Source: Paracoccaceae bacterium (GTDB taxonomy: Bacteria; Pseudomonadota; Alphaproteobacteria; Rhizobiales; Stappiaceae). From it: a stretch of 64,000 nt of DNA. How positions within the stretch are numbered: the first letter of the stretch is position 1; every line of letters begins with the position of its first letter. The notes below the pieces were generated by a model. That model made no database searches. It was given only the letters and a program-made list of their open reading frames with translations, and was not told the origin of the DNA. Where the stretch lies: NCBI GenBank assembly GCA_013373445.1, contig JABXHV010000025.1:16126-80125 (forward strand), written 5' to 3'. A program made the position numbers and the translations under genes. This document shows positions 37,776-55,758 of this stretch, one piece after another.

Positions 37776-38131
37776 GACAGCCTTCTTCTCAAAAATTCTG
37801 GGTTATCGAAGTGTCGAATCTGCCCAACGTGACTAGGAAGTTTGAATTCAAATTGGTCTAAAAATCCCACACTTTATTCTGACTGAGACTGTCTGCGGTG
37901 TGCCGAGCAAAATCAAGAGTTTGGGATTTGTGTGGCCGTAAATTCGTACATATCAGGCTGCTCTTCAACAAAACGACGATGAAGACCTTTCCATTCGTCA
38001 GTACCTGGACTAAGAAACTCGGATAAGATCGCTTGTGTGCTGCTCCCGGTTTCGAGTTTTTCATCTTGCAGATCGTGGAGTTGCGGTGAAGGTTCTCCGC
38101 ACAAGGTTCCTTTCAACATGCAGTCGATAAG

Positions 38132-38725: not shown

Positions 38726-38751
38726 CCTGACACACTCTGTAACGAGGCATC

Positions 38752-39690
38752 ATGACATATAATATTCTTGTAACCGGTGGCGCTGGTTACCTTGGCTCAA
38801 TTTTGGTTCCAGATCTTTTGGCCGCAGGCCATAAAGTGACCGTGCTTGACAATTTCATGTACAAGCAGGCCAGCCTAAACCACTGTGCCTACCATTCGAA
38901 TTTCAGCGTCGTTAAGGGCGACATTCGTGTTGAAGAGACAATTGCGCCGTTGATGAAGTCCGCGGATGTCGTAATACCGTTAGCTGCATTGGTTGGAGCG
39001 CCGATCTGTAGTCAGGACCCAATCGGAGCGACGACCACAAATCACGATGCAATTGCATTAATGCTGAAGCTGCTGTCCAAACAGCAAATTGTGCTCATGC
39101 CGACGACCAATAGCGCTTATGGGACCGGCGATGAGAATAACTTCTGTACGGAAGAATCGCCTTTGCGACCGATCTCGCAGTATGCGATTGAAAAGGTCGC
39201 CATCGAAAAGGAATTGATGCAGCACGAGAATGCGATCAGTTTCCGACTTGCTACAGTATTTGGCATGTCCCCGAGAATGCGCCTAGATCTGCTGGTAAAT
39301 GACTTTACTTACCGTGCGTTCAATGATCGTTTTGTCGTCCTTTTCGAAAGTCAGTTTAAAAGGAATTATGTTCACGTGAGAGATGTCTCGCGTGTGTTCC
39401 GGCATGCACTTGATAACTTTGAAAAAATGCGCGGCGAGATTTTCAACGTTGGGCTTTCTGACGCAAATGTTTCAAAGAAGGAGCTTTGCGAGGTAATCCA
39501 GACGCAGCTACCTGACTTTACCTTTATTGATGGCGCTGTTGGCAAGGACCCGGATCAGAGAAACTACATCGTGTCGAATGAGAAAATCGAAGCGACTGGT
39601 TTTCAACCGGAGTTTAGGCTCGCTCGAGGAATTGGAGAATTGATCAAAGGCTTCCAGATGATCAAAAATAGCCGCTACGGAAACGTTTAG
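38752..39690 (+). CDS. NAD-dependent SDR closely resembling C. jejuni Cj1427 (GDP-heptose C4-dehydrogenase)
   Basis: IPLAALVGAP, TNSAYG, CTEESPLRPIS.Y, FRLATVFG.SPRMRLDLLVNDFTYRA, KRNYVHVRDV, DPDQRNYIVSN match the recalled Cj1427 sequence along its length; next to gmhA. Confidence 0.75.
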   Translation: MTYNILVTGGAGYLGSILVPDLLAAGHKVTVLDNFMYKQASLNHCAYHSNFSVVKGDIRVEETIAPLMKSADVVIPLAALVGAPICSQDPIGATTTNHDAIALMLKLLSKQQIVLMPTTNSAYGTGDENNFCTEESPLRPISQYAIEKVAIEKELMQHENAISFRLATVFGMSPRMRLDLLVNDFTYRAFNDRFVVLFESQFKRNYVHVRDVSRVFRHALDNFEKMRGEIFNVGLSDANVSKKELCEVIQTQLPDFTFIDGAVGKDPDQRNYIVSNEKIEATGFQPEFRLARGIGELIKGFQMIKNSRYGNV

Positions 39691-43804: not shown

Positions 43805-44746
43805 CTAAATGCTGCGCTCATCAACACCAAGGTATGCTTTTTCAGCAATAAACCAGTCAATTGTTTCTTTGAGGCCCTCACGCAACGGTATGAGGCTGGA
43901 CTTGTAATCTAGGATCTCGTTTTCGATTTCACTAATCTCGAGCATCTTGGCTTTTGCGCCAACGTATCGAGTAGTGTCATATTCAATATGGGTTTCATCA
44001 AAGTTGATTTCCTCACAGATAATTTTGACGAAATCGCGAATTGAATAGTCTTCACCTGCACCAATGTTGAGAAGCTTGTTGTCGACGTTCTCCGTCAGGT
44101 TTAACAGGATGTCTACAAAACTTCTGACATGGACCAGTTCCCGCCTTTGGTGACCGTCGCCCCAAAGAACGACACGATCTCCCAGCAATTTTCCGCGCAG
44201 AATTTTTCGGACTAAGTCAAAAATGAAATGCATCTGCCGACCGTCCAGATGATACCTTGGTCCGTAAAGTGTTGACGGAACTGCACAGAGCCAAGTCTGT
44301 CCAAACTGTTTCTCGATTGATCGCGCCCCCTGGAAGAGCATGCGCTTGGTCATTGCGTAGGTGTAGAGACTATCTATCGGCTCCCCTGACATGTAATTCC
44401 GTTCACGAAGTTCCATGTCAATTGGATAAGCGCAGCTGGTGCCCATGAAAATCAGTTTTGCCTGGGGTTGGTGGGCTTGCCACCAAGTCAGGACATTAGT
44501 GTTGATTTTCTGATTATTGATCCACTGTTCCCCTGGATGAAGCAGGCAAAAATCACCTGCCTGTGTCCAAGCCGCCAAGTGAAAGATGCGATCAAACTTC
44601 GTATGCGCAAATTTCTCAAGGGCGTCTGGATCAAAGAGGTTGCAGTCTCGAGACCGAGGATAGGTAACGCTACACCCATTCTCGAGCAGCTTTGACACCA
44701 GTTCCTGGCCAAGGAAACCGCCACCACCTGTTACAAAAACATCCAT
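43805..44746 (-). CDS. Fcl/WcaG-like GDP-4-keto-sugar reductase (GDP-fucose synthase family)
   Basis: GGGGFLG, FHLAA, GTSCAYP, YAMTK, PSTLYGP, WGDGHQRREL. Confidence 0.8.
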   Translation of the reverse strand: MDVFVTGGGGFLGQELVSKLLENGCSVTYPRSRDCNLFDPDALEKFAHTKFDRIFHLAAWTQAGDFCLLHPGEQWINNQKINTNVLTWWQAHQPQAKLIFMGTSCAYPIDMELRERNYMSGEPIDSLYTYAMTKRMLFQGARSIEKQFGQTWLCAVPSTLYGPRYHLDGRQMHFIFDLVRKILRGKLLGDRVVLWGDGHQRRELVHVRSFVDILLNLTENVDNKLLNIGAGEDYSIRDFVKIICEEINFDETHIEYDTTRYVGAKAKMLEISEIENEILDYKSSLIPLREGLKETIDWFIAEKAYLGVDERSI

Positions 44747-44749
44747 CTT

Positions 44750-45946
44750 TTATCTCGGTTCAATCGGAAAATAGAATTCGACACCCTGTTCAATCAGGTG
44801 CTGATTGTTTCTCAGAATCTCGGTTTTAAAATTCCACGCCAAGCCATAATAGACATCCGGCAGAACCTCGAGCTCCTTTTCGATAAGAATTGGAATGTGC
44901 ATTCCCGGCGAATAAAGACCGCGACGCAGTTCATTCTTTTCAATCAAAAATTCGATGGTCTCCGGTCCGATACCGAAATAGTTCAGAAGAGTGTTGCCTT
45001 TCACCGGCGCCCCCATTCCAAAGATCCGCTTCCCAGCTTCCCTGCATTTCGTCAGATACGCCACATCTCGCTCCTTTATCTGAGCAACCCGATTTGCAAA
45101 TTCGAAATAGGAATACTTATCGTTACATTTCGAGGCAGCTTCAGCTTTCTCAAGGTCGACAAGCCTGGTCGATTTGTCGCGTTTTCCAGGATGCCCAACG
45201 AAGCCAATCATTTGACCGCCGTGGATTGGAGACAAAAACGCGTCAAACATCTCCAAGCCGTGAATTTTCAAGAGCTTCTGGATTGTCTCAAGAGAATAAT
45301 AAAGCAGGTGTTCGTGATAGATCTGGTCGAAGGCGTTATTCTCCATAATGTTCTTCATGTAGAGGAATTGAACAACAAAAACACCTGTGTCTTCGAGACC
45401 TACACGAATGGCATCAGTTACGGAGTGGAGTTCTTCGAGGTGGAAAAACACGCCTGCAGCGTTAATCACCGAGAACTGTTTATTTATGTCGTTTATGCAT
45501 TCCAAATTAAAGAAACGATTTAGTGTTGGAACATCACTATCATTTGCAATTGCTGCGGTGGTCTTTGACGATTCTACGCCAAGAACATCCCAACCAAGGG
45601 TTTGATAATGTTTCAACTGTGTCCCGTCATTTGACCCAATATCGAGGATGCTCTTCTTTGTGAAACCATCACCGAAGCGGTTGTCGACATCTTCTGCGAT
45701 ACCTTTGAAATGATCTGACAGTGATTTGGTAATGCCGGACAGGTAGGTGTGGTCACCGAACATGATTTGCTTATCGACCGTGTAATCCAGCTGGGAAGTG
45801 CGACAGCTATTGCAATACATCAAATTCAGTGGGTAGAGCGGCTCTGTGCCGACCTGCGCTTCCGTAAGGAAGTTATTGCACCAGGGCTGATCTCCTAAAT
45901 CAAGCACTGGTTCCAAATCGGTTCCGTCGCAAACTCGGCATTTCAT
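44750..45946 (-). CDS. NDP-sugar C-methyltransferase (Zn-binding N-domain, SAM domain, C-methyltransferase C-domain)
   Basis: CRVC and CNSC Zn ligands, LDIGSNDG, FDQIYHEHLLYY, GMGAPVKGNTLLNY, AWNFKTEI; architecture of TcaB9/KijD1/NovU-type sugar 3-C-methyltransferases. Confidence 0.85.
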   Translation of the reverse strand: MKCRVCDGTDLEPVLDLGDQPWCNNFLTEAQVGTEPLYPLNLMYCNSCRTSQLDYTVDKQIMFGDHTYLSGITKSLSDHFKGIAEDVDNRFGDGFTKKSILDIGSNDGTQLKHYQTLGWDVLGVESSKTTAAIANDSDVPTLNRFFNLECINDINKQFSVINAAGVFFHLEELHSVTDAIRVGLEDTGVFVVQFLYMKNIMENNAFDQIYHEHLLYYSLETIQKLLKIHGLEMFDAFLSPIHGGQMIGFVGHPGKRDKSTRLVDLEKAEAASKCNDKYSYFEFANRVAQIKERDVAYLTKCREAGKRIFGMGAPVKGNTLLNYFGIGPETIEFLIEKNELRRGLYSPGMHIPILIEKELEVLPDVYYGLAWNFKTEILRNNQHLIEQGVEFYFPIEPR

Positions 45947-45964
45947 TTCATTGTCCTCGGTAGA

Positions 45965-46705
45965 TTAATTATTTTCGAAATGCAGCTTGATGAAGTCTCC
46001 GCTTTCGCCAAGGCTAGCTTCCGTGCCAATATCGATAAATGGGCTGATTTCTGGGATAATTTTAATTTTCATACCCTTTTCAAGCAATGAAGGAATTATG
46101 TCTTGCTCCATTGATAGCGGCCGGGTTTTACTGTCCGACTGCATGAGGCTTTCTGGCCTAAATAGGTAAACCCCAGAATTTATGACGCCAGCTCCCGGCG
46201 TTTTTTCTTGAAAGGCGGTAAGTGTGTATTGTTTGTTGAAGGTTAAGGTTCCGTAGCGGCTGGCATCTTGCATCTCTACGCCAAAAATTGCGCCCGAATA
46301 ATCCGCTCCCATGCACTCGACCGCTACCGCTAGATCATAATCTACCAACATGGAATCGCCGTTCAATATTAAAAAAGGCGATGAGATATTCGGGTGCTGA
46401 ACGAGGAAGTCGAGCACACTTCCGCCTGTTCCGGCAGGTGAACTCTCCCGAATACAGGCAATCTCGAAATCACTTGATCGCTCGCTTCGAGCGTAGGCTT
46501 CGATTTGCTCAGCTTCATAGTGGGTCAACAAATAGACTTCGCGAATTTGTTGCGCCTTGAGGCTTTTGAAAATCCAATGAAGAAAAGGCTTTCCATTTAC
46601 CTGTGCGAGCGGTTTGGGAACAGTTCCGGTCAGGTGCCTTATTCTAGTTCCGAATCCACCCGCTAGCACGACTGCCGACAGACCTTGAGGAGATGCATTG
46701 GGCAT
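45965..46705 (-). CDS. hddC: D-glycero-alpha-D-manno-heptose 1-phosphate guanylyltransferase (HddC-like)
   Basis: LAGGFGTRI..PKPLAQVNGKPFL, GTGG, LNGDS, INSGVY, FIDIGT; close to hddA. Confidence 0.8.
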   Translation of the reverse strand: MPNASPQGLSAVVLAGGFGTRIRHLTGTVPKPLAQVNGKPFLHWIFKSLKAQQIREVYLLTHYEAEQIEAYARSERSSDFEIACIRESSPAGTGGSVLDFLVQHPNISSPFLILNGDSMLVDYDLAVAVECMGADYSGAIFGVEMQDASRYGTLTFNKQYTLTAFQEKTPGAGVINSGVYLFRPESLMQSDSKTRPLSMEQDIIPSLLEKGMKIKIIPEISPFIDIGTEASLGESGDFIKLHFENN

Positions 46706-46853
46706 TCATTTTACCACGGATAGATACTCGAGGATCATCTTTGGCAACTATCTAGTTCATTTCTGTAGATGATCGCAACAGTGAGATCGAAAGGTTTTGC
46801 TTCGTTCTGCTCCCTACTGACATCTTTTGGATTATGAAAAGTACTCTTTCAAG

Positions 46854-47762
46854 TTACGGATAAAGCTCATACTCGGTAAGTAGGTGTTCCAGATCGAGGT
46901 TCAGGAACACATAATCTCCGGGTCGTGAGCTCACGAGCTTGAAGTTGAATGTTTTCAAATAGTCAACAATCGCAGATGCTGAATCATGATAGCCATCCGC
47001 TCCAAGCACAATGTGATCGGGTTGCGCTTTTGGATCGGCATATTGTGAGTTCTCATAGATGCCTTTGAAACACTCTACACGGCAAAACAAAACCTTCTTA
47101 ATTTCTAGACCTGCCCCTTTGAGAACTTCCAGGTCATGTCCTTCCGTGTCGATCTTCAGAGATTCAACAAAAGAGAACCCGGCTTTGTCGATCTCCGGAA
47201 ACAGAAGTGACAATGGGAATTCCAATACGTTAAACTCCTGATCAACGATGTTCCCGGTCGATTTAGGCGTTTGAATTTTGTAAAGTGAGCTGTTTCCCTT
47301 ATCGGGATAGGCAGAATAGAAAGTCCTTTCTATCGGTGCATCGGAGGAGCCGGCCGCACCTTGAATGATGACAAATCTTTTCTCTAGGTCCGGAATATTT
47401 TTAACATTATTCCCTTTTCGAATGATCTTGTCCCGAGTGGACATCGAATGAAACTTGGGCACTCCAAACCTTAGGCCTCTCAAATTGCCAGGGTGCGGTT
47501 CGATCCCAATAATCATCCGATTATCGGCATCGAACAAACAGTCAACCGAATGGGATGCGTCATCGCTCAAGCCAATATCTATTCGAAGAAATTGGGCTGT
47601 TTCAGATCGGGTTAATGAGAAATCGATTGGTGACAGGAATTTTCCTTCCTGCGTTAAAGATGGACCAGATCTCTGATATAAAAATGCTATTGCTTTACTG
47701 AACCCTCTACAAACGAAGCTCAATAGTACCATGCGAATTTTTGACATCGATTTCCCGCTCAT
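46854..47762 (-). CDS. Divergent FkbM-like methyltransferase
   Basis: RIDIGLS..IIGIEP, LKIDTEGHDLEVLKGA motifs. Confidence 0.7.
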   Translation of the reverse strand: MSGKSMSKIRMVLLSFVCRGFSKAIAFLYQRSGPSLTQEGKFLSPIDFSLTRSETAQFLRIDIGLSDDASHSVDCLFDADNRMIIGIEPHPGNLRGLRFGVPKFHSMSTRDKIIRKGNNVKNIPDLEKRFVIIQGAAGSSDAPIERTFYSAYPDKGNSSLYKIQTPKSTGNIVDQEFNVLEFPLSLLFPEIDKAGFSFVESLKIDTEGHDLEVLKGAGLEIKKVLFCRVECFKGIYENSQYADPKAQPDHIVLGADGYHDSASAIVDYLKTFNFKLVSSRPGDYVFLNLDLEHLLTEYELYP

Positions 47763-47852
47763 GCCAGTTTTTGGCAGTTTATGTGCTTCAAGGTGAAGCG
47801 AATTTAGACTTGTAAAAGTATATTCAAATCGGAACCATGCGCATGGCTCAGA

Positions 47853-48839
47853 CTAGGAACCGGCATGAATAACAGAGCTTCCTTGTGCGTTTAATGTAAC
47901 GGCTACTTCATGCATATTTGAGAATGCACTCCTAAAGCGGTGTTGTTCCCGTTTGGGAACATAGAAGAGTAGAAAGCCACCACCGCCAGCACCGAGTAGC
48001 TTGCCTCCCAATGCCCCGCTCTGCATCCCAAGTTTATAAGCGTCATCGATATGCGGGTTTGTAACATCCCCGCTTAGCGAACGTTTCAATTGCCAGCTCT
48101 CATCGAGGAGATGCCCGATATCATCTATTGAATCACCCGATGAAAGTACTTTACGTGCCTCATCTACGCATGCATACATCCTATCGAGTGAACTGAGGTT
48201 CTTGTCCATGCGTTTGAGCTTCTCTTCCTCTATGTCCGAAGCCCGACGTGTCATTCCGGTGTAAAGCAGGATCAGGTTGTCAGAGAGCTCTTGGGTCTGC
48301 CCCTCATTAACGTTGATGCGTTCTACATCAAAACTTTCATTGCCATAGAATTTTATATGATTGAACCCGCCGTAACTTGCGAATAGTTGGTCTTGAAACC
48401 CTACCGATTCTTCCAAAACGTTTCGTTCGAGATGGATTGCGGTTTGCGCCAACTCTTTCATACCTATGAGCTGACCTTTGAAAGCATTTAACCCTTTGAT
48501 CAGGCCAACCGTGAACGAGGATGAGGAGCCAAGCCCGGTAAATGATGGCAAGTCCGATGCGAGGTTTACCTCAATATTTTCGTGGATGCCGTGATACTTG
48601 AGGATCTCTTTGAACGGGCGATGCTTGATGTGCTCAACATCAGGTACCTGTTCCACAATCCTATAAGCAAAGCGAATTTTGTGCTCAAACAGCCAAGAGG
48701 GGAAATGGGAGAGCGTATGGTAAATGTATTTGTCGATCGCCGATCCGATGACACCTCCACCGTTCGCTTTAAAGTATTCGGGAAAGTCCGTTCCACCACC
48801 AAACAGGCTAATACGGAGGGGGGTGCGCACAATTATCAT
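47853..48839 (-). CDS. hddA: D-glycero-alpha-D-manno-heptose 7-phosphate kinase (GHMP family)
   Basis: RTPLRISLFGGGTD, DLPSFTGLGSSSS, G.QDQ, GGKLLGAGGGGF. Confidence 0.88.
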   Translation of the reverse strand: MIIVRTPLRISLFGGGTDFPEYFKANGGGVIGSAIDKYIYHTLSHFPSWLFEHKIRFAYRIVEQVPDVEHIKHRPFKEILKYHGIHENIEVNLASDLPSFTGLGSSSSFTVGLIKGLNAFKGQLIGMKELAQTAIHLERNVLEESVGFQDQLFASYGGFNHIKFYGNESFDVERINVNEGQTQELSDNLILLYTGMTRRASDIEEEKLKRMDKNLSSLDRMYACVDEARKVLSSGDSIDDIGHLLDESWQLKRSLSGDVTNPHIDDAYKLGMQSGALGGKLLGAGGGGFLLFYVPKREQHRFRSAFSNMHEVAVTLNAQGSSVIHAGS

Positions 48840-48871: not shown

Positions 48872-50077
48872 CTATAGCAGGCTGAATTTTTGAAAATAGT
48901 GCCTTGGGATTAAACTTTCTGCATAGTAGTCATATGCGTCTTGAGGGCATAATTCGGAGTACATTACTTGTTGCTTGGAGGTTTTCAAATCATTCAGTAA
49001 TTTTTGATCATGCTCGACAAAGGCGCGAAAGAATTCATCAAAGTCATCAATACAGTCGTTTGGATCAGCCGATAAAGTCTCTAAATGAGCTGACTTATAG
49101 TCACTGTCGTTTCGATACCAATGATATTTTTTGGAAAAAATTTCGAGAGCTGACACCACCCTATTTTTTTCTAACAACAGCTTAGGTATCGCCATACTGT
49201 TTTTCGGGTGCGGCCTTAAAAAGGAATAGGGTAGAATATTCACTAAAAAGATGGGGCGCCCCCAGATCGTAGCAAGTTGTGACGCCCCAGACGCAGATCC
49301 GATAAACAGTGTACACTGACTTGTGAGGTAGACGTTGAGAAGCTCAGTATCAGCAATATCCAAATCGGGCAATTCCAAATAACGTTTGGGACCTTCAACT
49401 TCGTTCCCCTGGTATTCACCAATTCGTATGGTTGTGAAACTGCGATCATGCAGATAATCCAAGATTGCGTTGAATGATCGGATATCACTGCTGCGGTAAT
49501 TTTGAGTAAATAGATTCGGATTCTTCGTTTTTGAATCAAAGGTAGAGTCCCGTGAATGAAGAACGGCAATTCGATCCTTTTCTACATTTGGAAAGACCGC
49601 TTTGAATAGCTTTTCAGCTCTTTTTAGAGAAGGTGCATCCCATTCGATGACCGGAACATTTGAATTGTACTTATTATAAATATTGAATACTTCTGCTGGG
49701 CTAAAGTCTAACGCAACGTATTTTGAGCAATCATAGCCGGTTTCAGGGTAAATTCTGAGGTAATCTAGTAAAAAGCATAAAAAGGGATTCGTGATGACTA
49801 TGAGATCTTTATGATTGGACCATAATCTTGCAATGTCATTATTGGCACATTTTCTTTGATCAGATAATAAAATTCCTCGAAAATCGAATTTTTCTAACTT
49901 CTTTTCTTTGATAAAGCAATCAACGTCAGCGCAGAGGTGGCCTATTGCCGCAGAGTTTGTATTTAAAAATCTATACCTCGCAGAAATACCGAATTTTTTG
50001 AACAAAAAGCACAATAGTGGACCAATAAAAACGCGTTTCGAAATGTTTAATGATTGATCTATTTTTTTGGCAAACAT
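48872..50077 (-). CDS. Putative glycosyltransferase, TIGR04372-like
   Basis: AIGHL, LHSRDSTF..NYRSSDI, IRIGE, FIGSASG..W.RP pattern recalled for TIGR04372. Confidence 0.65.
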   Translation of the reverse strand: MFAKKIDQSLNISKRVFIGPLLCFLFKKFGISARYRFLNTNSAAIGHLCADVDCFIKEKKLEKFDFRGILLSDQRKCANNDIARLWSNHKDLIVITNPFLCFLLDYLRIYPETGYDCSKYVALDFSPAEVFNIYNKYNSNVPVIEWDAPSLKRAEKLFKAVFPNVEKDRIAVLHSRDSTFDSKTKNPNLFTQNYRSSDIRSFNAILDYLHDRSFTTIRIGEYQGNEVEGPKRYLELPDLDIADTELLNVYLTSQCTLFIGSASGASQLATIWGRPIFLVNILPYSFLRPHPKNSMAIPKLLLEKNRVVSALEIFSKKYHWYRNDSDYKSAHLETLSADPNDCIDDFDEFFRAFVEHDQKLLNDLKTSKQQVMYSELCPQDAYDYYAESLIPRHYFQKFSLL

Positions 50078-50121: not shown

Positions 50122-50643
50122 CTAAATCTTTAGCGCTTTATAGAGGCGATTTAATGTCTCTGTTGAAGAGAATGTTTCTTCGAAGGTATGGATAACTTCG
50201 ATTCCTTTACTTTCAGCGTAATCGCGTTCCTTAAGAAAATTTTGATTTCGTTCTTGTATTTGTAGATGGTATTCTTGACCTTTGAAAAATTTATTTGGCT
50301 TCAAGTGATCTAATACCATAATTGCACTTGGTGAATTTGATATAACGACACCATCAACGCATGCGAGACCAGAAAGCATTTCCGCCCGGTATTTTTCATC
50401 AAAAATAGGCCTTTCTGGCCCTTTGTTGACATACCTATTTGCTGTCACAGAAACGATTAGAGCGTCACACATACTTGCGGCGGACATAAGATGCCGGAGG
50501 TGTCCGAAATGAAGAACATCAAAGCAACCATGGCACAGGCCTACGACCAGTTGATTATCTTTGAGAGCTTGAATTTTTTCCGACGCGGAATTTTCGTCTA
50601 TGACGCCCATTCTCGGATGTCGGGGAAAGTCTCTTGCGTTCAT
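50122..50643 (-). CDS. Stand-alone HldC/RfaE domain II-like nucleotidyltransferase (cytidylyltransferase superfamily)
   Basis: HGCFDVLHFGH (HxGH), NKGPERPIF, FKGQEY, FSSTETLNR; no fused PfkB kinase domain. Confidence 0.82.
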   Translation of the reverse strand: MNARDFPRHPRMGVIDENSASEKIQALKDNQLVVGLCHGCFDVLHFGHLRHLMSAASMCDALIVSVTANRYVNKGPERPIFDEKYRAEMLSGLACVDGVVISNSPSAIMVLDHLKPNKFFKGQEYHLQIQERNQNFLKERDYAESKGIEVIHTFEETFSSTETLNRLYKALKI

Positions 50644-51449
50644 TGTACTTTACGTCCTCCCTGGAAGTGCAAAATATCTCTAAAAATGTTCTTGGATTGT
50701 GAAAAGTCTAACTCGTTAAGCGACGATACAACGATACCTGCACCATTTGTGCGAAGTGTCTCACCGTCACCTTTTCGATCAATGCCGATAATCAGTCCTG
50801 CGCCAGCGTCGCGCGCCGAAATCACCCCTGAAATCGCATCTTCAATCACGATACATTCTTCAGGAAGTTTGCCAAGCAGACGTGCTGCAAAGGTGTAGAA
50901 CTCGGGATCGGGTTTTGATTTTATTCCGTTCTCCTCTGCAACCTCACCATCAAGTATAGACGAAAAATATTCTGTCAAGCCCGTCCGTTCCAGGACCAAA
51001 CTTGCGTTCTTACTTGAGCTTGCAAGGCCAAGCAGCGCATTGTTTTGTTTGAGAGTATTAAGTGCAATTAATGCGTCTTCGAAAAGCTTGACGCCTTCGG
51101 TCTCTAGAAATTTTCTGAAGATCTGGTTCTTGTCGTTACCAATTCCGCAAATTGTATTGACGTTGCTGTCAGTAACTTCGCCAGTTGGCAGCTGGAGATT
51201 GCGAGAGCTTAAGAAATCTCGAATTCCTGCGGGTCGGCTCTTTCCATCGACATAGCGCAAATAGTCCTCTGTTTCGTTGAATGGAGGTGCGCTTGGATCA
51301 ATATTTGAAAGCACTTGGTCAAAAACGGCTTTCCAAGCTTTTGTATGGATAGAGGCTGTATCAGATATTACCCCGTCCATATCAAATAGAACTGCACAAG
51401 TCATTCCACGGCTCTCTGGTACTCTGTTGAGGGGAATATCGCTCTTCAA
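50640..51449 (-). CDS. Beta-phosphoglucomutase-family HAD enzyme
   Basis: FDMDGVISDTA..H..AWK, YVDGKSR, ASSSKNA, SKPDPE, IEDAISG; likely ATG at 51404; ATGA overlap with the downstream gene. Confidence 0.82.
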   Translation of the reverse strand: MKSDIPLNRVPESRGMTCAVLFDMDGVISDTASIHTKAWKAVFDQVLSNIDPSAPPFNETEDYLRYVDGKSRPAGIRDFLSSRNLQLPTGEVTDSNVNTICGIGNDKNQIFRKFLETEGVKLFEDALIALNTLKQNNALLGLASSSKNASLVLERTGLTEYFSSILDGEVAEENGIKSKPDPEFYTFAARLLGKLPEECIVIEDAISGVISARDAGAGLIIGIDRKGDGETLRTNGAGIVVSSLNELDFSQSKNIFRDILHFQGGRKVQ

Positions 51450-51464
51450 GAAATCTGAGTTCTG

Positions 51465-52130
51465 TCAGAACAAGATTTTGAAATTTACCTGACCTTTGTA
51501 ATCGAGATCCGAAAGAAAATTACGCCACCAGTTGGTATCGTGAATTGTGAGGTGTGTCTCGTCCCATGATTTTATCAAATCCTGGCCGCGTTTGTCCTCA
51601 CTTACCTGAATTTCGAAAAATATATTATCGGTTTTAGATACTCTCTTGATTTCATGCAGCGTTGCGCGCAACTGGTTCTCCGATAGATGCGGCAATGTTT
51701 CTTTAGAGTAGACAAAGTCGAAAGTATTATCGGGCCACGGCAGCTGCTCGCAAGAACCATTGACGATAAATTCTTTCACCTCTTCCATCGAATTTTCCAC
51801 CGCGTATGAAGATAGGTCTATGCCATTGACCTGGATACCACGCTTGTGAAACTCATAAAGTATGAAACCTTTAGCACAACCGATTTCTAACACCCGAGAA
51901 CTTGAGTTCAGCCTATAATGGCTGATCATTTTTTCAGCGCAAACACCATAACGACCATCATAACTATAGCCCCCATAGCCAACGCCGTATTCTGGGTTGT
52001 CCCAATAGTTAAAGCCGTAATTCTGAAAGTCTGCGCGTTGCTCTGGAGTAGGCGAGAATTCCTCAATCAAAGTTTCGCGTTCGCTAGCACGACGAGACTT
52101 TGAAAAACTGAAAAAATCGATTTCAATCAT
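51465..52130 (-). CDS. Class I SAM-dependent methyltransferase
   Basis: GYGGYSY, VLEIGCAKGF, GIDLS.YA, FDFVYS.ETLPHL. Confidence 0.85.
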   Translation of the reverse strand: MIEIDFFSFSKSRRASERETLIEEFSPTPEQRADFQNYGFNYWDNPEYGVGYGGYSYDGRYGVCAEKMISHYRLNSSSRVLEIGCAKGFILYEFHKRGIQVNGIDLSSYAVENSMEEVKEFIVNGSCEQLPWPDNTFDFVYSKETLPHLSENQLRATLHEIKRVSKTDNIFFEIQVSEDKRGQDLIKSWDETHLTIHDTNWWRNFLSDLDYKGQVNFKILF

Positions 52131-52171
52131 TGGTTGAAAATTCTCTCATTACTACAGGATGGCTACTTAGG

Positions 52172-53278
52172 TTATCGGTAAAAGGTCTTGATGTGTTGGC
52201 ATACGTAACGCACATCCTCAACTGTAATATGCTCGGCCATGGGGACACTTAAAATTCTTTTTACCATGTGCTTTGCGTTCGACAAGTCGCCATGAATTCT
52301 GCAACCGTTTTGGGCAGCTTTCAGCTCAGGAATAAGTTTAGGATAGTGAACTTTTACTTCAATACCGTGACCCGCAAGATATTCTATCAACTCATCTCGT
52401 CGCTCCACGAGGAGCATCACCCAGTTATAAGATGCGTTGTTTTCCTGCGAAATGAGCGGGAATTGTACTGTTCCCGCTAATTCTTCGCGGTAAATCTGCG
52501 CAAGTTGTCTTCGGCAATCTAGTTCCTCAGCATAGCGAGGGAGCATCGAGCTCAAGAATGCCGCGTGAAGCTCGTCGAGGCGCGAGTTGATTGACCAAAA
52601 ATCACAGTCATCGCGGCCTGCGTGACCGTGATTACGCGCTTGTCCTAACCATTGCCCATTATCTTGGTTGCTGACGAGAATCATTCCGCCATCGCCTAGG
52701 GTGCCAAGGTTTTTTAGCGGATGAAAGCTGAGCGTTCCAAAATCACCGAATGTGCCAGTCATCTTCCCGTTGCGTGTCGCACCCAAAGATTGCGCACAAT
52801 CTTCGATGAATACTAGCCCTCGCTTCGTTGCAATTTCCGCTATGCGCTCCGCTTGGGCAGGGACCCCGGCTAAATGAACGACTGAAATCGCACGAGTGCG
52901 ATCAGTAATGGCATCTTCGATCAAATCCGGATCCAGATTTAAGCTCGCATCCACATCAATAAAGACCGGTATCGCCCCTACCAACGCAATCGATGACGCG
53001 GTCGCCAGATAGGTCATCGGTGTCGTTATTACCTCATCACCAGGTTTGATGCCGGCTGCCTTCAGACTGAGTACAAGCGCATCTGTCCCGTTTGCAACCG
53101 CCACGGCATGTTTGGCGCCAGTGAAAGCTTTCACGCTTGTCTCGAATTGCTTTACTTCATTCCCAAGAATGAAGAAGCCGCTTGAAAGAACGCGATCTAG
53201 ATCATCATGGAGTTTTTCTGAAAAACGGGAATATTTCTTTTCAAGGTCAATAAACGTTACAGCTCGACTTGAAGTCAT
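52172..53278 (-). CDS. DegT/DnrJ/EryC1/StrS family PLP sugar aminotransferase
   Basis: VANGTDAL, IEDCAQS, SFHPLKNLGTLGDGG, NSRLDELHAA. Confidence 0.9.
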   Translation of the reverse strand: MTSSRAVTFIDLEKKYSRFSEKLHDDLDRVLSSGFFILGNEVKQFETSVKAFTGAKHAVAVANGTDALVLSLKAAGIKPGDEVITTPMTYLATASSIALVGAIPVFIDVDASLNLDPDLIEDAITDRTRAISVVHLAGVPAQAERIAEIATKRGLVFIEDCAQSLGATRNGKMTGTFGDFGTLSFHPLKNLGTLGDGGMILVSNQDNGQWLGQARNHGHAGRDDCDFWSINSRLDELHAAFLSSMLPRYAEELDCRRQLAQIYREELAGTVQFPLISQENNASYNWVMLLVERRDELIEYLAGHGIEVKVHYPKLIPELKAAQNGCRIHGDLSNAKHMVKRILSVPMAEHITVEDVRYVCQHIKTFYR

Positions 53279-54264
53279 GGTTTGTGCTCATAGCTTTGGG
53301 GCAGCAGGAGTAACTCTTCCAGATTGTTTTTGCACCATTCTGCACAGCGTTCTAGCCCCGCCTCCAGTGAGAGCTGAGGAGACCAGCCGAGCTCTGTCGA
53401 GATTTTGGTTGAGTCGAGAAGATAGGCTTGATCCTTACCGAGCCGATCTGGTGCGAGCTCTACAATTTCAGAGAATTGGGCGCCAGCAATCGCGCAGATC
53501 TTTTCGACGAGGGCTCTGATGGTCACCGAATCCTTGGGTGACATGTGGTAGTCTTCGCCACTCTGTCCATTTTCGCAAACACGCATTACACCGTCAGATA
53601 TGTCGTCGAAATGTACGAACGCGCGTTCGGACAATCCGCCGCCATGCAACGATAATTTTGTATTGGAAAAACAACACAGGAATGTTCGGGGTATGATCCG
53701 ATACAATTGCTGGCCTTCACCATAAACATTGGCAGCCCGGGTGATGACCGTTGGCAAATCGTAGGTCTCGCTCCATAGGACAGTACTCATGTCTCCAGCA
53801 GCGCGTGAGAGCGCATAGGGTGTGCTTGGATTGTAATTTCTATTCTCGACAATCCATCCATCTGTTGAACCGTATACCTCTGGCGTCGAAAAATGCACGT
53901 AGCGTTCAAGATAGTCAGCGTTTCGCAGGAGTTCGAGTAGGTTGGCCATTGCGACAACGTTGGTCTGCATCCAGTGGGATGGGTTCTCCCAACTTTGCGC
54001 GACCATTGCTTGTGAGGCGAAGTTAACGACATACGCAGGTCGATGCTTTCGCATTAGCTCGGCTAGGCGCTCTATGTCTCTATTAAGATCAATTTGTTCG
54101 AATATGGGAGTTTTTCTCGAGCCCCAGGCGTAAGGAAGAAAAACCTTTTCTTTTTCAGGAGATCTACTCGTCGCGATGACCTCATACCCTCTATCAAGAG
54201 CGTAGGCACAAAAATTCGCTGCTGATGGGGAATTGCTTCCAAGTACAATGATACTCTTCGTCAC
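53275..54264 (-). CDS. NDP-sugar 4,6-dehydratase-like SDR
   Basis: FASQAMVAQSW, HFSTPEVYGS, PSTPYALSRA, RAANVYG, LHGGG.SER, DRLGKDQAYLLDS; degenerate NAD motif GSNSPSA. Confidence 0.75.
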   Translation of the reverse strand: MTKSIIVLGSNSPSAANFCAYALDRGYEVIATSRSPEKEKVFLPYAWGSRKTPIFEQIDLNRDIERLAELMRKHRPAYVVNFASQAMVAQSWENPSHWMQTNVVAMANLLELLRNADYLERYVHFSTPEVYGSTDGWIVENRNYNPSTPYALSRAAGDMSTVLWSETYDLPTVITRAANVYGEGQQLYRIIPRTFLCCFSNTKLSLHGGGLSERAFVHFDDISDGVMRVCENGQSGEDYHMSPKDSVTIRALVEKICAIAGAQFSEIVELAPDRLGKDQAYLLDSTKISTELGWSPQLSLEAGLERCAEWCKNNLEELLLLPQSYEHKP

Positions 54265-54312: not shown

Positions 54313-55758
54313 CTATTTCGCGAAACCACGACGATACATATTTATCAACTCGGGATGAATGCCCCAGTCAACTGCACCAACAGAATCATGTAGTTCTTCC
54401 AGGTCGCGACGAATATATTCTCGGTATTGCCTGTCCATTCTGATGCCTGACGGCCGGTAGCCATGCTGATAGTGTTGGCTGATCAGGCTTTCCACTCCCA
54501 TCTCAATCGCATCTTCTCTTGCGATGTCTCTAATCGGTTCGCGCTCTGGGTTGAATATGCTCAATCTTGGGTCGACGTCCTCGCCGCACATGAGGGCAGC
54601 GATGTTTTGGGAGATCACGGGGGCCAGATGAAATCCGTCTCGTTTGGTGCCTGTTGTGACAAATAGATTGGCGATAGAGGTTCCGCCAAGCAGCGGGTAA
54701 ACGTCTTGCGACGTTGGTCGCCATCCAACATTGACGCGAACCAATTGCGCGTCCGCGAAGTTCGCATTGATCTCCTTGGTTGCGCTTTCAAGGAGGTGCG
54801 CAATGCTGATTACCCTGCCATGGTAAAATGGTTTGGGTGAAAGGAAGTTGCTTGCCCCGATCAAGACGTGATCATTTGCAAGTTGCGGGCCTTGGAAATA
54901 GGGAGCTGTATATACGCCGCAGGCGCCTCCTCGATTGGGTGTCCGAATGCACTTCGTCAAGCCAAATCCGGGAGACTTGATTTCGAGTGAAACACCTACA
55001 CCATAGAATATGGGCTGGATTTGTAGTCCAAGATCACTATCCGAAAGCAGTTCTTCAGACGGAGCGCCATTCGCGACCAAGAAGACATCACCCTCAATGC
55101 GCTCGTTCGTATCGAGCAGGACTGATGAAATTTTTCCATCAGTTTGCTCGAGTTTTGTAACCTTCGCATCTTTGACAGTGATTTGAGCGTGATTGGAAAG
55201 TATTGCATCTAGTTTTTCCAAAACAATACGCGGGTTCAACCAACCTTCATTATGAATAAGAATTGCTTTGTTTGCCCGGCTATCGGTACTCGGTGCATAG
55301 TTCGGAATCGACTGCGGTTCAACGAACTCATACTGTTCATTAAAATCCTCGCATGCCTGGACAATTGCAGCGAAGTTACGATCGTCTAGTTCATCTGCGA
55401 CAGTGTTATTCAGAATATAGGTACCTTTTTCAAAGCAGCCTCCTGAATGGATTTGGCACTTGGCGCATGCGCCCGGCAGGTTTTCACCTGCTGCATCAAT
55501 CAATTCCTTTTCAAACTCTGGCCATAGTCGAGTTGCGAGATGACTCAGCTCAAAATGGAAGATGTCAGCATCAGATTTAAAAGAATTTGAATGGATTTCT
55601 GCAAATGAATTTAGCATTGCAGCAGCAGCCAGCGTTGCAGACCCAACACGTTCATTGGGGCCGATCAGTATAATTGTATCGTTAGCGCTGATTTTGCTTA
55701 GGAGCCTAAACGCCGAGCTCATAGCGATGATACCGTTACCGATCACTACATACTGCAT
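54313..55758 (-). CDS. FAD-dependent oxidoreductase, DAO/glycine-oxidase (ThiO)-like
   Basis: VIGNGIIA FAD motif, SATLAAAAML, GWRPTSQD.YPLLG, TGTKRDGFHLAP. Confidence 0.75.
   Translation of the reverse strand: MQYVVIGNGIIAMSSAFRLLSKISANDTIILIGPNERVGSATLAAAAMLNSFAEIHSNSFKSDADIFHFELSHLATRLWPEFEKELIDAAGENLPGACAKCQIHSGGCFEKGTYILNNTVADELDDRNFAAIVQACEDFNEQYEFVEPQSIPNYAPSTDSRANKAILIHNEGWLNPRIVLEKLDAILSNHAQITVKDAKVTKLEQTDGKISSVLLDTNERIEGDVFLVANGAPSEELLSDSDLGLQIQPIFYGVGVSLEIKSPGFGLTKCIRTPNRGGACGVYTAPYFQGPQLANDHVLIGASNFLSPKPFYHGRVISIAHLLESATKEINANFADAQLVRVNVGWRPTSQDVYPLLGGTSIANLFVTTGTKRDGFHLAPVISQNIAALMCGEDVDPRLSIFNPEREPIRDIAREDAIEMGVESLISQHYQHGYRPSGIRMDRQYREYIRRDLEELHDSVGAVDWGIHPELINMYRRGFAK

What the first reader, a model, noticed from the sequence alone, without database searches (positions are those of the whole stretch)
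50122..51449. Beta-PGM-like mutase coupled to a kinase-less HldC-like nucleotidyltransferase: possible kinase-independent route to an NDP-beta-sugar/heptose
Seen: a HAD enzyme with beta-phosphoglucomutase motifs (DMDGVISDTA, SSSKN, KPDP, ED) overlaps by ATGA (50640-50643) a stand-alone RfaE-domain-II-type nucleotidyltransferase. No HldA/PfkB kinase is in the window; the only kinase, HddA, makes the alpha anomer. Established: HldE/HldC nucleotidyltransferases use beta-heptose-1-phosphate, beta-PGMs interconvert sugar-6-P and beta-sugar-1-P, and beta-PGM genes usually sit with GH65 phosphorylases rather than in glycan islands. Inference: the mutase could turn heptose-7-P (or a hexose-6-P) directly into the beta-1-phosphate for the neighbour, bypassing the kinase + GmhB steps. 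The C-terminal SST-ETLN-R resembles the STT-x4-R motif I recall being linked to CTP/UTP-accepting heptose nucleotidyltransferases (needs verification). NDP-beta-heptoses are ALPK1 agonists.
Basis: inference. Interest (0 to 1): 0.75.

Follow-up and report, generated by a model that had tools for sequence, protein, structure and literature searches.

The report
Beta-phosphoglucomutase plus HldC-like nucleotidyltransferase sugar-activation module
Two overlapping genes in a marine bacterium's surface-sugar island most likely turn ordinary glucose-6-phosphate into an unusual beta-linked nucleotide sugar without a kinase, a route not found in the literature searched but inferred here only from sequence and gene neighbourhoods.

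Summary
On the minus strand, a 254-aa HAD protein (50640-51404) keeps every catalytic and phosphate-site residue of beta-phosphoglucomutase. Its stop overlaps (ATGA) the start of a 173-aa PF01467 nucleotidyltransferase (50122-50643). That enzyme's nearest solved fold is HldC, but it fails the HldE-domain-II cut-off. No PfkB kinase is in the window.

Across 89 loci holding relatives of the nucleotidyltransferase, 17 sit with a beta-PGM-like HAD, two of them also with a GH65 phosphorylase, which makes beta-glucose-1-P. Another 69 are fused or adjacent to a PfkB kinase, 55 of them with a GmhA-like SIS isomerase. None has both.

The likely sugar is glucose rather than heptose. The window has its own complete GmhA/GmhB/GHMP-kinase/HddC-like set. 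The recalled "STT-x4-R" motif is wrong: the real motif is (F/L)xxGRSTT, and it is not met.

The pair belongs to a conserved cassette: methyltransferase, HAD, NT, RmlB-like SDR, DegT aminotransferase and an N-formimidoyl-synthase-like flavoenzyme. This predicts an NDP-beta-hexose-derived N-formimidoyl amino sugar. All functions are inferred, none assayed.

The parts
50640..51404 (-). Beta-phosphoglucomutase-like HAD-IA protein (254 aa from ATG; an alternative TTG start is at 51449)
   Evidence: Pfam Hydrolase/HAD_2. TIGR02009 scores 154.5 against a 153.35 cut-off; TIGR01990 scores 111, below 189. Best PDB hits are 8h5s 'Beta-phosphoglucomutase' (E 4.7e-46) and L. lactis bPGM 1lvh (6.5e-22). D8, D10, T16, H20, W24, G46, R49, K76, S114, S116, K117, N118, K145, E169 and D170 are 100% conserved in 29 cassette-type homologues, and N77 in 97%.
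50122..50643 (-). Stand-alone cytidylyltransferase-fold nucleotidyltransferase (173 aa), a distinct HldC-like subfamily. Signature: LCHGCFDvLHxGH, VNKGPxRP, FKGxEY, T-E-x-x-SST
   Evidence: PF01467. rfaE_dom_II scores 89.5, below the 181.5 cut-off. AF2 model has pLDDT 90. Best solved fold is B. pseudomallei HldC 5xf2, E 5.5e-12, TM 0.70-0.81. At least 559 genomic relatives were found.
50640..50643 (-). ATGA stop/start overlap of HAD and NT (probable translational coupling)
   Evidence: The same 4-nt overlap appears in L004, L005, L089 and, with reversed gene order, in L088.
51465..52130 (-). SAM-dependent methyltransferase (Methyltransf_11/25), a conserved cassette member directly upstream of the HAD
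52172..53278 (-). DegT/DnrJ/EryC1-family sugar aminotransferase, cassette member
   Evidence: PF01041 scores 329 bits. It is conserved in the cassette.
53275..54264 (-). RmlB-like extended SDR with atypical catalytic motifs (STPEVYG instead of STDEVYG; YxxxR instead of YxxxK), cassette member
   Evidence: TIGR01181 scores 183.5, below the 365 cut-off. Best PDB hits are dTDP-glucose 4,6-dehydratases, 6bi4 at 1.7e-40. The motifs are conserved in orthologues.
54313..55758 (-). FAD-dependent DAO-family enzyme resembling N-formimidoyl fortimicin A synthase/Orf1, cassette member
   Evidence: PF01266. PDB 7xyl, E 6.7e-49. The function of Orf1 is taken from PMC10156733. It is conserved in the cassette.
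48872..50077 (-). TIGR04372-family glycosyltransferase immediately downstream of the NT (candidate user of the product; present only in island-type relatives)
   Evidence: The same position is occupied in L001, L008 and L089.

Best explanation
The two genes form a two-step, kinase-independent sugar-activation module.

Step 1 (inferred). The HAD protein is a true beta-phosphoglucomutase-type mutase. An Asp8 phospho-enzyme acts through a beta-hexose-1,6-bisphosphate intermediate. It converts a 6-phosphate from central metabolism, most likely glucose-6-P, into the beta-1-phosphate, a metabolite the cell otherwise lacks.

Step 2 (inferred). The translationally coupled HldC-like nucleotidyltransferase condenses that beta-sugar-1-P with an NTP of unknown base. 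This gives an NDP-beta-D-hexose plus PPi and pulls the unfavourable mutase equilibrium forward.

Step 3 (inferred from the conserved cassette). The RmlB-like SDR, the DegT aminotransferase, the Orf1-like flavoenzyme (glycine-derived N-formimidoyl or iminoacetyl transfer) and the methyltransferase convert the product into an N-modified amino(-deoxy) sugar. The adjacent glycosyltransferase and the island's ABC exporter then use it.

Shown: gene structure, residue conservation, fold, and the mutually exclusive genomic contexts. Inferred: every catalytic activity, the sugar identity, the nucleotide and the anomer.
For: 1. All beta-PGM catalytic, distal-phosphate-site and hinge residues align with L. 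lactis bPGM. They are invariant or nearly so in 29 cassette-type HADs, as in 85 more distant stand-alone beta-PGM-family homologues.
2. The best solved relative is a beta-PGM at E 4.7e-46.
3. Relatives 42-46% identical are stand-alone bPGMs. The one looked up (L091) sits beside a GH65. Rv3400-type enzymes are genetically validated beta-PGMs (bioRxiv 10.1101/2025.11.20.689507).
4. The NT's nearest solved fold and nearest NCBIfam family are HldC/HldE domain II, enzymes that use beta-anomeric sugar-1-phosphates. B. pseudomallei HldC accepts beta-glucose-1-P (PMC7993394).
5. Of 89 loci with NT relatives, 17 are HAD-linked, 69 are PfkB-linked (55 with a GmhA-like SIS), 3 have neither and 0 have both (PfkB and SIS confirmed by Pfam). 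The HAD therefore displaces the isomerase/kinase supply branch.
6. Two HAD-linked loci from unrelated lineages (L006, and L023 Tepidibacillus) also carry a GH65 gene. The L006 GH65 is closest to kojibiose and maltose phosphorylases, which make beta-G1P.
7. Cassette copies in a Betaproteobacteria MAG, Rhodospirillaceae, Pseudoalteromonas sp. OOF1S-7, Marinimicrobia and L090 have no sugar kinase or SIS gene detected within 8-10 kb.
8. Adjacency survives gene-order inversion: HAD then NT in cassettes, NT then HAD in L023, L044 and L088.
9. Logic: glucose-6-P is ubiquitous, so the only thing a dedicated beta-PGM can add to a biosynthetic cassette is the beta-1-phosphate.
Against: - Nothing has been assayed. 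Several members of the TIGR02009 subfamily are phosphatases (YqaB, HxpB), and the HAD is below the bPGM equivalog cut-off (111 against 189).
- The NT is far below the HldC equivalog cut-off. It replaces the predicted HldC sugar-binding motifs: TNG becomes CHG, NSD becomes TAN, KGG becomes KGQ. Its substrate could therefore differ from any known one.
- By plain sequence search, ethanolamine-phosphate cytidylyltransferase scores slightly better than HldC.
- The downstream SDR lacks the Asp of the RmlB Asp/Glu pair and has Arg in place of the catalytic Lys. A classical 4,6-dehydratase step is uncertain.
- No natural NDP-beta-D-glucose pathway was found in the searchable literature. This fits novelty but also means there is no precedent.
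- The window has a GmhA-like gene 12 kb away, so heptose-7-P is available in this organism.
- The context survey covers only the best 80 of at least 559 genomic relatives, plus 8 metagenomic loci, some of them redundant.
Confidence: 0.55

Rival explanations
1. Same module, but the sugar is a heptose. The HAD converts D-glycero-D-manno-heptose-7-P, made by GmhA, directly into the beta-1-phosphate. The NT then makes NDP-beta-heptose, bypassing HldA and GmhB.
For: Most NT relatives (type B) are fused to a PfkB kinase and sit next to a GmhA-like SIS isomerase, the hallmark of heptose activation. The nearest family and fold is HldC. The window has a GmhA-like gene at 38132-38725.
Against: No SIS gene was detected within the 8-10 kb flanks held for the HAD-linked loci surveyed. 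Two HAD-linked loci carry GH65 phosphorylase genes, which make beta-glucose-1-P and not heptose. The cassette HADs show no change at any known ligand-contact residue relative to the stand-alone beta-PGM-type homologues, although a 1,7-bisphosphate intermediate is longer. The window's GmhA/GmhB sit with a GHMP kinase and an HddC-like NTP-transferase that already form a complete alpha-heptose route. The type-B SIS proteins are themselves well below GmhA cut-offs (85 against 209).
Confidence: 0.15
2. The HAD is only a phosphatase, like YqaB/HxpB/GmhB or the C. jejuni Cj1435-type enzymes. It trims a phosphate from a pathway intermediate or product. The NT gets its substrate from elsewhere, such as a distant kinase or housekeeping HldE/GmhB.
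For: The TIGR02009 subfamily contains many phosphatases, and the HAD is below the bPGM equivalog cut-off. The rest of the genome outside the 64-kb window cannot be inspected.
Against: The complete distal phosphate-binding site (R49, S116, K117, N118) and the H20/K76 cap-closure residues are invariant in the cassette group. These are needed for a bisphosphate intermediate and not for simple hydrolysis. The HAD and the PfkB/SIS branch are mutually exclusive, whereas a trimming phosphatase would be expected together with the kinase. The window already encodes a bona fide GmhB that passes its cut-off (196 against 178). Some kinase-linked loci carry a different, non-bPGM-like HAD for that role.
Confidence: 0.15
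3. The NT is a cytidylyltransferase for a non-anomeric phosphate ester. Candidates are glycerol-, ribitol-, ethanolamine- or serinol-phosphate, or a sugar-6-phosphate. The cassette would then decorate a glycan with a phospho-alcohol rather than make an NDP-beta-sugar.
For: The best PDB sequence hit is human ethanolamine-phosphate cytidylyltransferase (E 1.4e-12). TagD and CCT also match. The predicted HldC sugar-contact motifs are not conserved.
Against: TagD-family scores are far below cut-off (28.7 against 165.4), and rfaE_dom_II scores three times higher. The NT is fused or adjacent to PfkB sugar kinases plus SIS isomerases in 69 of 89 loci. It also co-occurs with RmlB-like SDR and DegT enzymes that normally act on NDP-sugars. 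A beta-PGM is not needed to supply any of these alcohol phosphates.
Confidence: 0.1

Closest known systems
Beta-phosphoglucomutase (EC 5.4.2.6; L. lactis PgmB, M. tuberculosis Rv3400-type; HAD subfamily IA, TIGR02009/TIGR01990)
   Same: Same fold class and cap type. Every catalytic, Mg, hinge and distal-phosphate residue is conserved. It has the long cap insertion seen in PDB 8h5s (E 4.7e-46).
   Different: It scores below the bPGM equivalog cut-off. It is not next to a GH65 phosphorylase or a maltose/trehalose catabolic operon. Instead it is translationally coupled to a nucleotidyltransferase inside a glycan-biosynthesis cassette. The proposed physiological direction (G6P to beta-G1P, anabolic) is the reverse of the known catabolic role.
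[quoted passage not shown]
   Same: Nearest NCBIfam family and nearest solved fold. It shares the HxGH and C-terminal SST(T)-type nucleotide motifs and a small single-domain size. Relatives are fused to PfkB kinases and neighbour SIS isomerases, as in the HldE/GmhA logic.
   Different: It scores 89.5 bits against a 181.5 cut-off. TNG becomes CHG, NSD becomes TAN, KGG becomes KGQ, and there is an extra insertion of roughly 7-8 residues (NPNFxxER). The STTR5 motif is absent. In fused relatives the domain order is NT then kinase, the reverse of HldE. In the window it is partnered by a mutase, not a kinase.
Classical hexose-activation pairs (alpha-PGM/PMM plus RmlA/GalU/ManC-type nucleotidyltransferase feeding RmlB and DegT enzymes)
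   Same: The overall logic is the same: a mutase makes a sugar-1-P, an NT makes an NDP-sugar, then an SDR oxidation or dehydration, a transamination and an N-modification follow. The window itself has a canonical RfbA/RfbB pair for comparison.
   Different: Both enzymes come from unrelated superfamilies: a HAD beta-PGM instead of an alpha-D-phosphohexomutase, and an HxGH cytidylyltransferase fold instead of the RmlA-like fold. The predicted anomer is beta-D rather than alpha-D.
Orf1 / N-formimidoyl fortimicin A synthase and KasN-type glycine-oxidase-like enzymes (for the cassette's DAO gene)
   Same: E 6.7e-49 to PDB 7xyl over residues 3-435. These enzymes add a glycine-derived formimidoyl or iminoacetyl group to an amino sugar or aminoglycoside amine (PMC10156733).
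   Different: Here the gene sits in a cell-surface glycan island next to NDP-sugar enzymes, not in an actinomycete aminoglycoside cluster. Its substrate is unknown.

Membership tests
Beta-phosphoglucomutase (EC 5.4.2.6) | HAD motif I DxDGV(I/L)(T/S)DT with nucleophile Asp8 and acid/base Asp10, plus motif II Ser114, motif III Lys145 and motif IV Glu169-Asp170 | tested here: met
   Alignment to L. lactis bPGM. All are 100% conserved in 29 cassette homologues.
Beta-phosphoglucomutase (EC 5.4.2.6) | Second (distal) phosphate site Arg49, Ser116, Lys117, Asn118, and cap-closure residues Thr16, His20, Lys76 | tested here: met
   All are invariant in the cassette group.
Beta-phosphoglucomutase (EC 5.4.2.6) | Score above the curated equivalog cut-off (NCBIfam TIGR01990, 189.4 bits) | tested here: not met
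   111.3 bits. Only the broader subfamily TIGR02009 is passed, and barely (154.5 against 153.35).
Beta-phosphoglucomutase (EC 5.4.2.6) | Genomic partnership with a GH65 (or other beta-G1P-forming) phosphorylase | tested here: not met
   None was found among the window ORFs scanned with Pfam/NCBIfam. It is present in relatives L006, L023 and L091.
Beta-phosphoglucomutase (EC 5.4.2.6) | Interconversion of beta-glucose-1-P and glucose-6-P via beta-glucose-1,6-bisphosphate | not testable with these tools
   This needs an enzyme assay.
HldC / HldE domain II heptose-1-P adenylyltransferase | Score above the curated cut-off of TIGR02199 (181.5 bits) | tested here: not met
   89.5 bits.
HldC / HldE domain II heptose-1-P adenylyltransferase | Cytidylyltransferase-fold HxGH nucleotide motif and C-terminal xSTT-type motif | tested here: met
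   H45-F-G-H48 and S159-S-T161. The AF2 model's best match is HldC 5xf2.
HldC / HldE domain II heptose-1-P adenylyltransferase | [quoted passage not shown] | tested here: not met
   Only KG is kept (K74-G75). TNG becomes C37-H38-G39, NSD becomes T67-A-N, and KGG becomes K121-G-Q. The motifs themselves come from docking, not from a complex structure.
HldC / HldE domain II heptose-1-P adenylyltransferase | Co-occurrence with GmhA isomerase and HldA/PfkB kinase (fused or nearby) | tested here: not met
   There is no PfkB in the window, and the GmhA-like gene is 12 kb away in a different module. This feature is met in 69 of 89 loci of relatives, but never together with the HAD.
NTP-promiscuous heptose nucleotidyltransferases (STTR5 class) | (F/L)xxGRSTT motif with Arg at position 5 (PMC11573728) | tested here: not met
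The window has F154-E-E-T-F-S-S-T161, with Thr at position 4 and Phe at position 5.
GmhB heptose-1,7-bisphosphate phosphatase (as an alternative role for the HAD) | Capless HAD-IIIA architecture and a score above the GmhB cut-offs | tested here: not met
   The HAD is a capped IA type with no GmhB hit. A separate gene at 36510-37091 passes NF006506 (196 against 178).
TagD-type glycerol-3-phosphate cytidylyltransferase | Score above the TIGR01518 cut-off (165.4 bits) | tested here: not met
   28.7 bits.

The most novel reading that the evidence does not exclude
This is the first natural biosynthetic route to an NDP-beta-D-glucose-type sugar nucleotide. A beta-phosphoglucomutase has been recruited from disaccharide catabolism to run 'backwards'. 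It feeds a new HldC-like nucleotidyltransferase subfamily and founds a family of beta-D-configured, N-formimidoylated amino sugars in the surface glycans of marine and soil bacteria, and in some small-molecule clusters. The same NT family, fused to PfkB kinases in Bradyrhizobium and methanotrophs, would define a second large uncharacterised branch of beta-sugar activation.
Probability: 0.4. Interest if true: 0.8.

Novelty: new variant of a known kind. Interest (0 to 1): 0.62.

Why it matters
Known bacterial sugar-nucleotide pathways start from alpha-phosphohexomutases or anomeric kinases. Beta-phosphoglucomutase is known only as a catabolic enzyme downstream of GH65 phosphorylases (my own knowledge).

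A beta-PGM-initiated, kinase-free route would add a new entry point to glycan biosynthesis. It would predict a class of NDP-beta-D-hexoses for which no natural pathway turned up in the literature searched, together with the glycosyltransferases that use them. It would also give a function to a widespread unannotated nucleotidyltransferase family, with at least 559 genomic loci.

The idea is directly testable with commercially available beta-glucose-1-phosphate. The cassette also places an aminoglycoside-type N-formimidoyl-forming flavoenzyme in cell-surface glycan synthesis.

Any relevance to ALPK1 sensing is speculative.

Tried and rejected
1. STT-x4-R/STTR5 motif. I checked it against the literature. 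The real motif is (F/L)xxGRSTT and it is not met.
2. The HAD as the GmhB of the window's heptose pathway. Rejected, because a dedicated GmhB passing its cut-off is present at 36510-37091 and the HAD is of a different HAD subclass.
3. A hidden PfkB kinase in any frame of the window. None at E<=10.
4. Rosetta-stone HAD-NT fusions among the longer NT homologues (P0041, P0045, P0074, P0078). None found. P0074 and P0078 look like truncated NT-kinase fusions; this is judged by eye against the L018 fusion sequence, not by a domain scan.
5. Literature searches for beta-G1P with a nucleotidyltransferase or cytidylyltransferase and beta-PGM, and for NDP-, CDP-, UDP-, ADP- or GDP-beta-D-glucose. No natural pathway was found. 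One query failed on syntax.
6. Searching the Rv3400 preprint for the PDB code 8H5S gave nothing. That 8h5s is Rv3400 is therefore my recollection only.
7. Specificity-determining-position analysis of cassette HADs against the more distant stand-alone beta-PGM-type HADs. It gave only conservative differences away from known ligand contacts, so there is no signal for a changed sugar.
8. Assigning the SDR as a plain dTDP-glucose 4,6-dehydratase. Not accepted, because of STPEVYG and YxxxR.
9. Organism identification. I established only 'seawater metagenome', with a proteobacterial-looking tkt-gap-pgk-fba backbone. The closest genomic NT relative in the GTDB species set is 64% identical.
Full report
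**1. What is there**

On the minus strand, two ORFs occupy the flagged interval.
- The upstream one runs 50640-51449 from a TTG. The ATG at 51404 gives a 254-aa protein beginning MTCAVLFDMDGVISDTA, matching homologue lengths of 243-256 aa.
- The downstream one, 50122-50643, encodes 173 aa.
- The HAD stop (TGA, 50642-50640) and the NT start (ATG, 50643-50641) share the tetranucleotide ATGA. A GGAGG lies 11 nt upstream of that ATG.
- Some homologues are called from the equivalent of Met12, so the overlap is likely but not proven.

**2. The HAD protein**

- Pfam places it in Hydrolase/HAD_2.
- NCBIfam places it just above the cut-off of the beta-phosphoglucomutase-family subfamily TIGR02009 (154.5 against 153.35). 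It is below the bPGM equivalog TIGR01990 (111.3 against 189.4).
- Against solved structures the best hit is 8h5s, 'Beta-phosphoglucomutase', at E 4.7e-46 over the whole length, including the long cap insertion. Lactococcus lactis beta-PGM follows at E 6.5e-22.
- In that alignment these residues are all conserved: nucleophile Asp8, acid/base Asp10, hinge Thr16, His20, Trp24, Gly46, Arg49, Lys76/Asn77, Ser114, the distal phosphate site Ser116-Lys117-Asn118, Lys145 and Glu169-Asp170.
- I compared 29 close homologues (at least 51% identity; both of those looked up, sit in the cassette) with 85 more distant stand-alone beta-PGM-family proteins (42-46% identity). Every one of these positions is conserved in 97-100% of the first group. 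The few group-discriminating columns are conservative and lie away from known ligand contacts.
- The 42-46% relatives include a gene sitting directly beside a GH65 phosphorylase (L091).
- Rv3400-type enzymes have been validated genetically as beta-PGMs.
- So the protein has everything a beta-PGM-type mutase needs. Whether it is a mutase or a phosphatase cannot be decided without an assay.

**3. The nucleotidyltransferase**

- It is a PF01467 cytidylyltransferase-fold protein.
- The best NCBIfam model is HldE domain II (rfaE_dom_II), but at 89.5 bits against a 181.5-bit cut-off. TagD, PPAT and other models score far lower.
- By plain sequence search against PDB chains, human ethanolamine-phosphate cytidylyltransferase (1.4e-12) and Burkholderia pseudomallei HldC (2.5e-11) are about equal.
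- An AlphaFold model built on 23 family members is confident (pLDDT 90). Its best structural match is B. pseudomallei HldC (E 5.5e-12, TM 0.70-0.81).
- The family is distinct. It has an invariant C-H-G-C-F-D...H-x-G-H, then V-N-K-G-P-x-R-P and F-K-G-x-E-Y, an insertion of roughly 7-8 residues (NPNFxxER), and T-x-E-x-x-S-S-T.
- Canonical HldC-like out-groups in the same search have TNG.. and ..GRSTT or GFSTT.
- Of the sugar-binding motifs predicted for HldC (TNG, NSD, KG, ExTP, KGG; PMC7993394), only KG is retained.
The window protein reads FEETFSST, so it is not met. The downstream Arg in ETLNR is irrelevant to it.

**4. Genomic context decides the question**

Homologues of the NT (89 proteins at E<=1e-5; at least 559 loci in one-genome-per-species contigs) were examined in 88 fetched loci plus the window. 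I searched six-frame translations with the window's own proteins and with proteins taken from the loci.

Two contexts emerge and they never mix.

*Type A (17 loci, with some redundancy).* The NT stands alone and lies next to, or in L006 and L008 within about 5 kb of, a beta-PGM-like HAD.
- Members: the window; L001-L003; L004/L005/L009, which are one Betaproteobacteria MAG; L008; L010 (Rhodospirillaceae); L011; L012 (Pseudoalteromonas sp. OOF1S-7); L015; L039 (Marinimicrobia); L044; L088 (Gemmatimonadaceae); L006; and L023 (Tepidibacillus infernus).
- L089 (Shewanella sp.) and L090 were found later through the HAD and show the same arrangement.

*Type B (69 loci).* These include many Bradyrhizobium, Methylomonas and Methylobacter, plus Elusimicrobia and Nitrospinae.
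- The NT is the N-terminal domain of, or lies just upstream of, a PfkB kinase. Pfam confirms CTP_transf_like 29-138 plus PfkB 194-484 in L018.
- In 55 of these loci a GmhA-like SIS isomerase is close by.
- These loci also carry a UXS-like SDR, thiamine-diphosphate enzymes (E1 alpha/beta or a split transketolase), one or two DegT genes and radical-SAM genes.

No locus has both a beta-PGM-like HAD and the kinase, and three have neither. In a neighbour-joining tree the cassette-type NTs form one clade. A second, basal group contains the other HAD-linked ones. The HAD therefore takes the place that isomerase plus anomeric kinase occupy elsewhere: supplier of the NT's sugar-1-phosphate.

**5. Which sugar?**

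Several observations point to a hexose, most simply glucose.
- L006 and L023 come from unrelated lineages. There the NT and the beta-PGM are clustered with a GH65 gene.
- The L006 GH65 is closest to kojibiose phosphorylase (3wiq, 2.4e-94), glucosylglycerol phosphorylase and maltose phosphorylase. All of these release beta-glucose-1-phosphate.
- B. pseudomallei HldC accepts beta-G1P in vitro, so this fold can handle it.
- Cassette copies in a Betaproteobacteria MAG, Rhodospirillaceae, Pseudoalteromonas, Marinimicrobia and L090 have no SIS or sugar-kinase gene detected within the 8-10 kb flanks held. The input must therefore be a central metabolite.
- Glucose-6-P is always available. The only thing a dedicated beta-PGM can contribute is the beta-1-phosphate.

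In the window itself the heptose genes form a separate, complete set:
- GmhB, 36510-37091, 196 bits against a 178 cut-off;
- a GmhA-like SIS protein, 38132-38725;
- a GHMP HddA-like kinase, 47853-48839;
- an HddC-like NTP-transferase, 45965-46705.

They sit with a sugar C-methyltransferase and an Fcl-like reductase. That set is absent from most other cassette loci.

Heptose-7-P as the mutase substrate cannot be excluded, since GmhA is present in this organism and the type B relatives look heptose-like. It is the less economical reading.

**6. The cassette**

In type A the pair is embedded in a conserved set of genes:
- a Methyltransf_11 methyltransferase (51465-52130);
- the HAD and the NT;
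- an RmlB-like SDR (53275-54264);
- a DegT aminotransferase (52172-53278);
- a DAO-family flavoprotein (54313-55758);
- often a radical-SAM/SPASM protein, which the window lacks: only 41 bp separate DegT and the methyltransferase.

The flavoprotein matches N-formimidoyl fortimicin A synthase/Orf1 at E 6.7e-49. [quoted passage not shown]

The SDR aligns best with dTDP-glucose 4,6-dehydratases (6bi4, 1.7e-40). It has STPEVYG in place of STDEVYG, and in type A YxxxR in place of YxxxK; both are conserved across orthologues. I therefore treat '4,6-dehydratase' as unproven.

The simplest chemical reading has five steps:
1. formation of the NDP-beta-hexose;
2. C4 oxidation, with or without 6-deoxygenation;
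3. transamination;
4. N-formimidoylation or iminoacetylation;
5. methylation.

Transfer would be by the adjacent TIGR04372 glycosyltransferase (48872-50077). An MsbA-like ABC exporter (59504-61291) lies upstream in the window and in four relatives.

**7. Setting**

- The window comes from a seawater metagenome.
- The first 24 kb (about 53% GC) carry ruvB, tkt, gap, pgk, fba, efp and an OmpA-family gene.
- From about 25 kb onward the GC falls to 38-50%, and nearly every gene is glycan-related.

**8. Comparison with what is known, and novelty**

The module works like the classical mutase/nucleotidyltransferase pairs that feed RmlB and DegT enzymes. Both enzymes, however, come from other superfamilies, and the predicted anomer is beta-D.
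- It is not a member of the HldC equivalog family: the cut-off, the sugar motifs and the kinase partnership all fail.
- It only marginally passes as a beta-PGM-family member: the residues are met, the equivalog cut-off and the GH65 partnership are not.
- Full-text searches found no natural NDP-beta-D-glucose pathway and no beta-PGM/nucleotidyltransferase pairing. The library lacks most subscription journals, so prior description cannot be excluded.

I classify it as a new variant of a known kind of system, well supported by comparative genomics but entirely unassayed. I put 0.55 on the mutase plus NT giving an NDP-beta-hexose, 0.15 on the heptose version, 0.15 on a phosphatase-only HAD, and 0.10 on a non-anomeric phosphate ester as the NT substrate.

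Noticed in passing
L013-L087 (for example L018:9397-13576, L031:8118-16000, L092:8001-16301): Most relatives of the NT are N-terminal domains of NT-PfkB fusion proteins, the reverse domain order of HldE. They sit next to a divergent GmhA-like SIS isomerase, a UXS-like SDR, thiamine-diphosphate enzymes (E1 alpha/beta or a split transketolase), DegT genes and radical-SAM/SPASM genes. This occurs in many Bradyrhizobium species, Methylomonas/Methylobacter, Elusimicrobia and Nitrospinae. It looks like a large, uncharacterised pathway for a chain-extended or branched beta-activated sugar. Some loci have a second stand-alone NT copy upstream of the fusion.
   Followed up: partly
window 54313-55758 (-): The DAO-family flavoprotein of the cassette matches N-formimidoyl fortimicin A synthase/Orf1 (PDB 7xyl, E 6.7e-49). 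This suggests glycine-derived N-formimidoyl or iminoacetyl decoration of a cell-surface amino sugar. That chemistry is known to me only from aminoglycoside antibiotics.
   Followed up: partly
window 53275-54264 (-): The RmlB-like SDR has STPEVYG (Asp to Pro) and YxxxR (Lys to Arg) at the catalytic positions, and a GSNSPSA dinucleotide-binding motif. All are conserved in cassette orthologues. Orthologues in two kinase-type loci keep YxxxK.
   Followed up: partly
window 36510-39690 (+) and 43805-48839 (-): A separate, apparently complete GDP-heptose-type module is present. It comprises GmhB, a GmhA-like isomerase, an SDR, a GHMP HddA-like kinase and an HddC-like NTP-transferase. With them are an FkbM methyltransferase, a TylC3-type sugar C-methyltransferase (44750-45946) and an Fcl-like reductase (43805-44746). 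This suggests a C-methylated or deoxy heptose. All score far below the HddA/HddC equivalog cut-offs.
   Followed up: partly
L006:5699-13773: A cluster with an Aminotran_3 gene, an Rmt/FmrO-like 16S rRNA methyltransferase (85.6 bits, below the 250 cut-off), the NT, a GH65 phosphorylase, an SDR, DegT and a classical beta-PGM. It lies beside a phage-type integrase. It could be an aminoglycoside-like biosynthetic cluster with a self-resistance gene.
   Followed up: no
L023:221-12795 (Tepidibacillus infernus): A Firmicute cluster holding two aminotransferases, an ATP-grasp-like ORF (judged by eye from the sequence, not scanned), a GH65, an SDR, DegT, the NT and an MFS-like transporter. Its beta-PGM gene is split into two ORFs (10465-10821 and 10833-11114), which indicates a frameshift or sequencing error.
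   Followed up: no
window 52131-52171: The radical-SAM/SPASM gene sits between DegT and the methyltransferase in the closest relatives (L001, L089, L090, L015). It is cleanly absent here, with only a 41-bp spacer, so the window's cassette is a shorter variant like L010, L012 and L039.
   Followed up: partly
window ~24700-25300 (GC profile 1-64000): There is a sharp compositional boundary. The first ~24 kb are housekeeping genes (ruvB, tkt, gap, pgk, fba, efp, an OmpA-family gene) at about 53% GC. From about 25 kb on is a ~39-kb or longer glycan island at 38-50% GC, with the minimum at 40-42 kb. This is consistent with a horizontally exchanged O-antigen or capsule island. Related islands occur in a Shewanella sp. 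assembly (L089).
   Followed up: partly
window 33019-36420 and 25298-26149: A canonical dTDP-sugar branch is also present: RfbB 34472-35554, RfbA 35551-36420, a second DegT 33019-34176 and an RmlD-like reductase 25298-26149. The island therefore encodes at least three independent sugar-nucleotide entry points.
   Followed up: no
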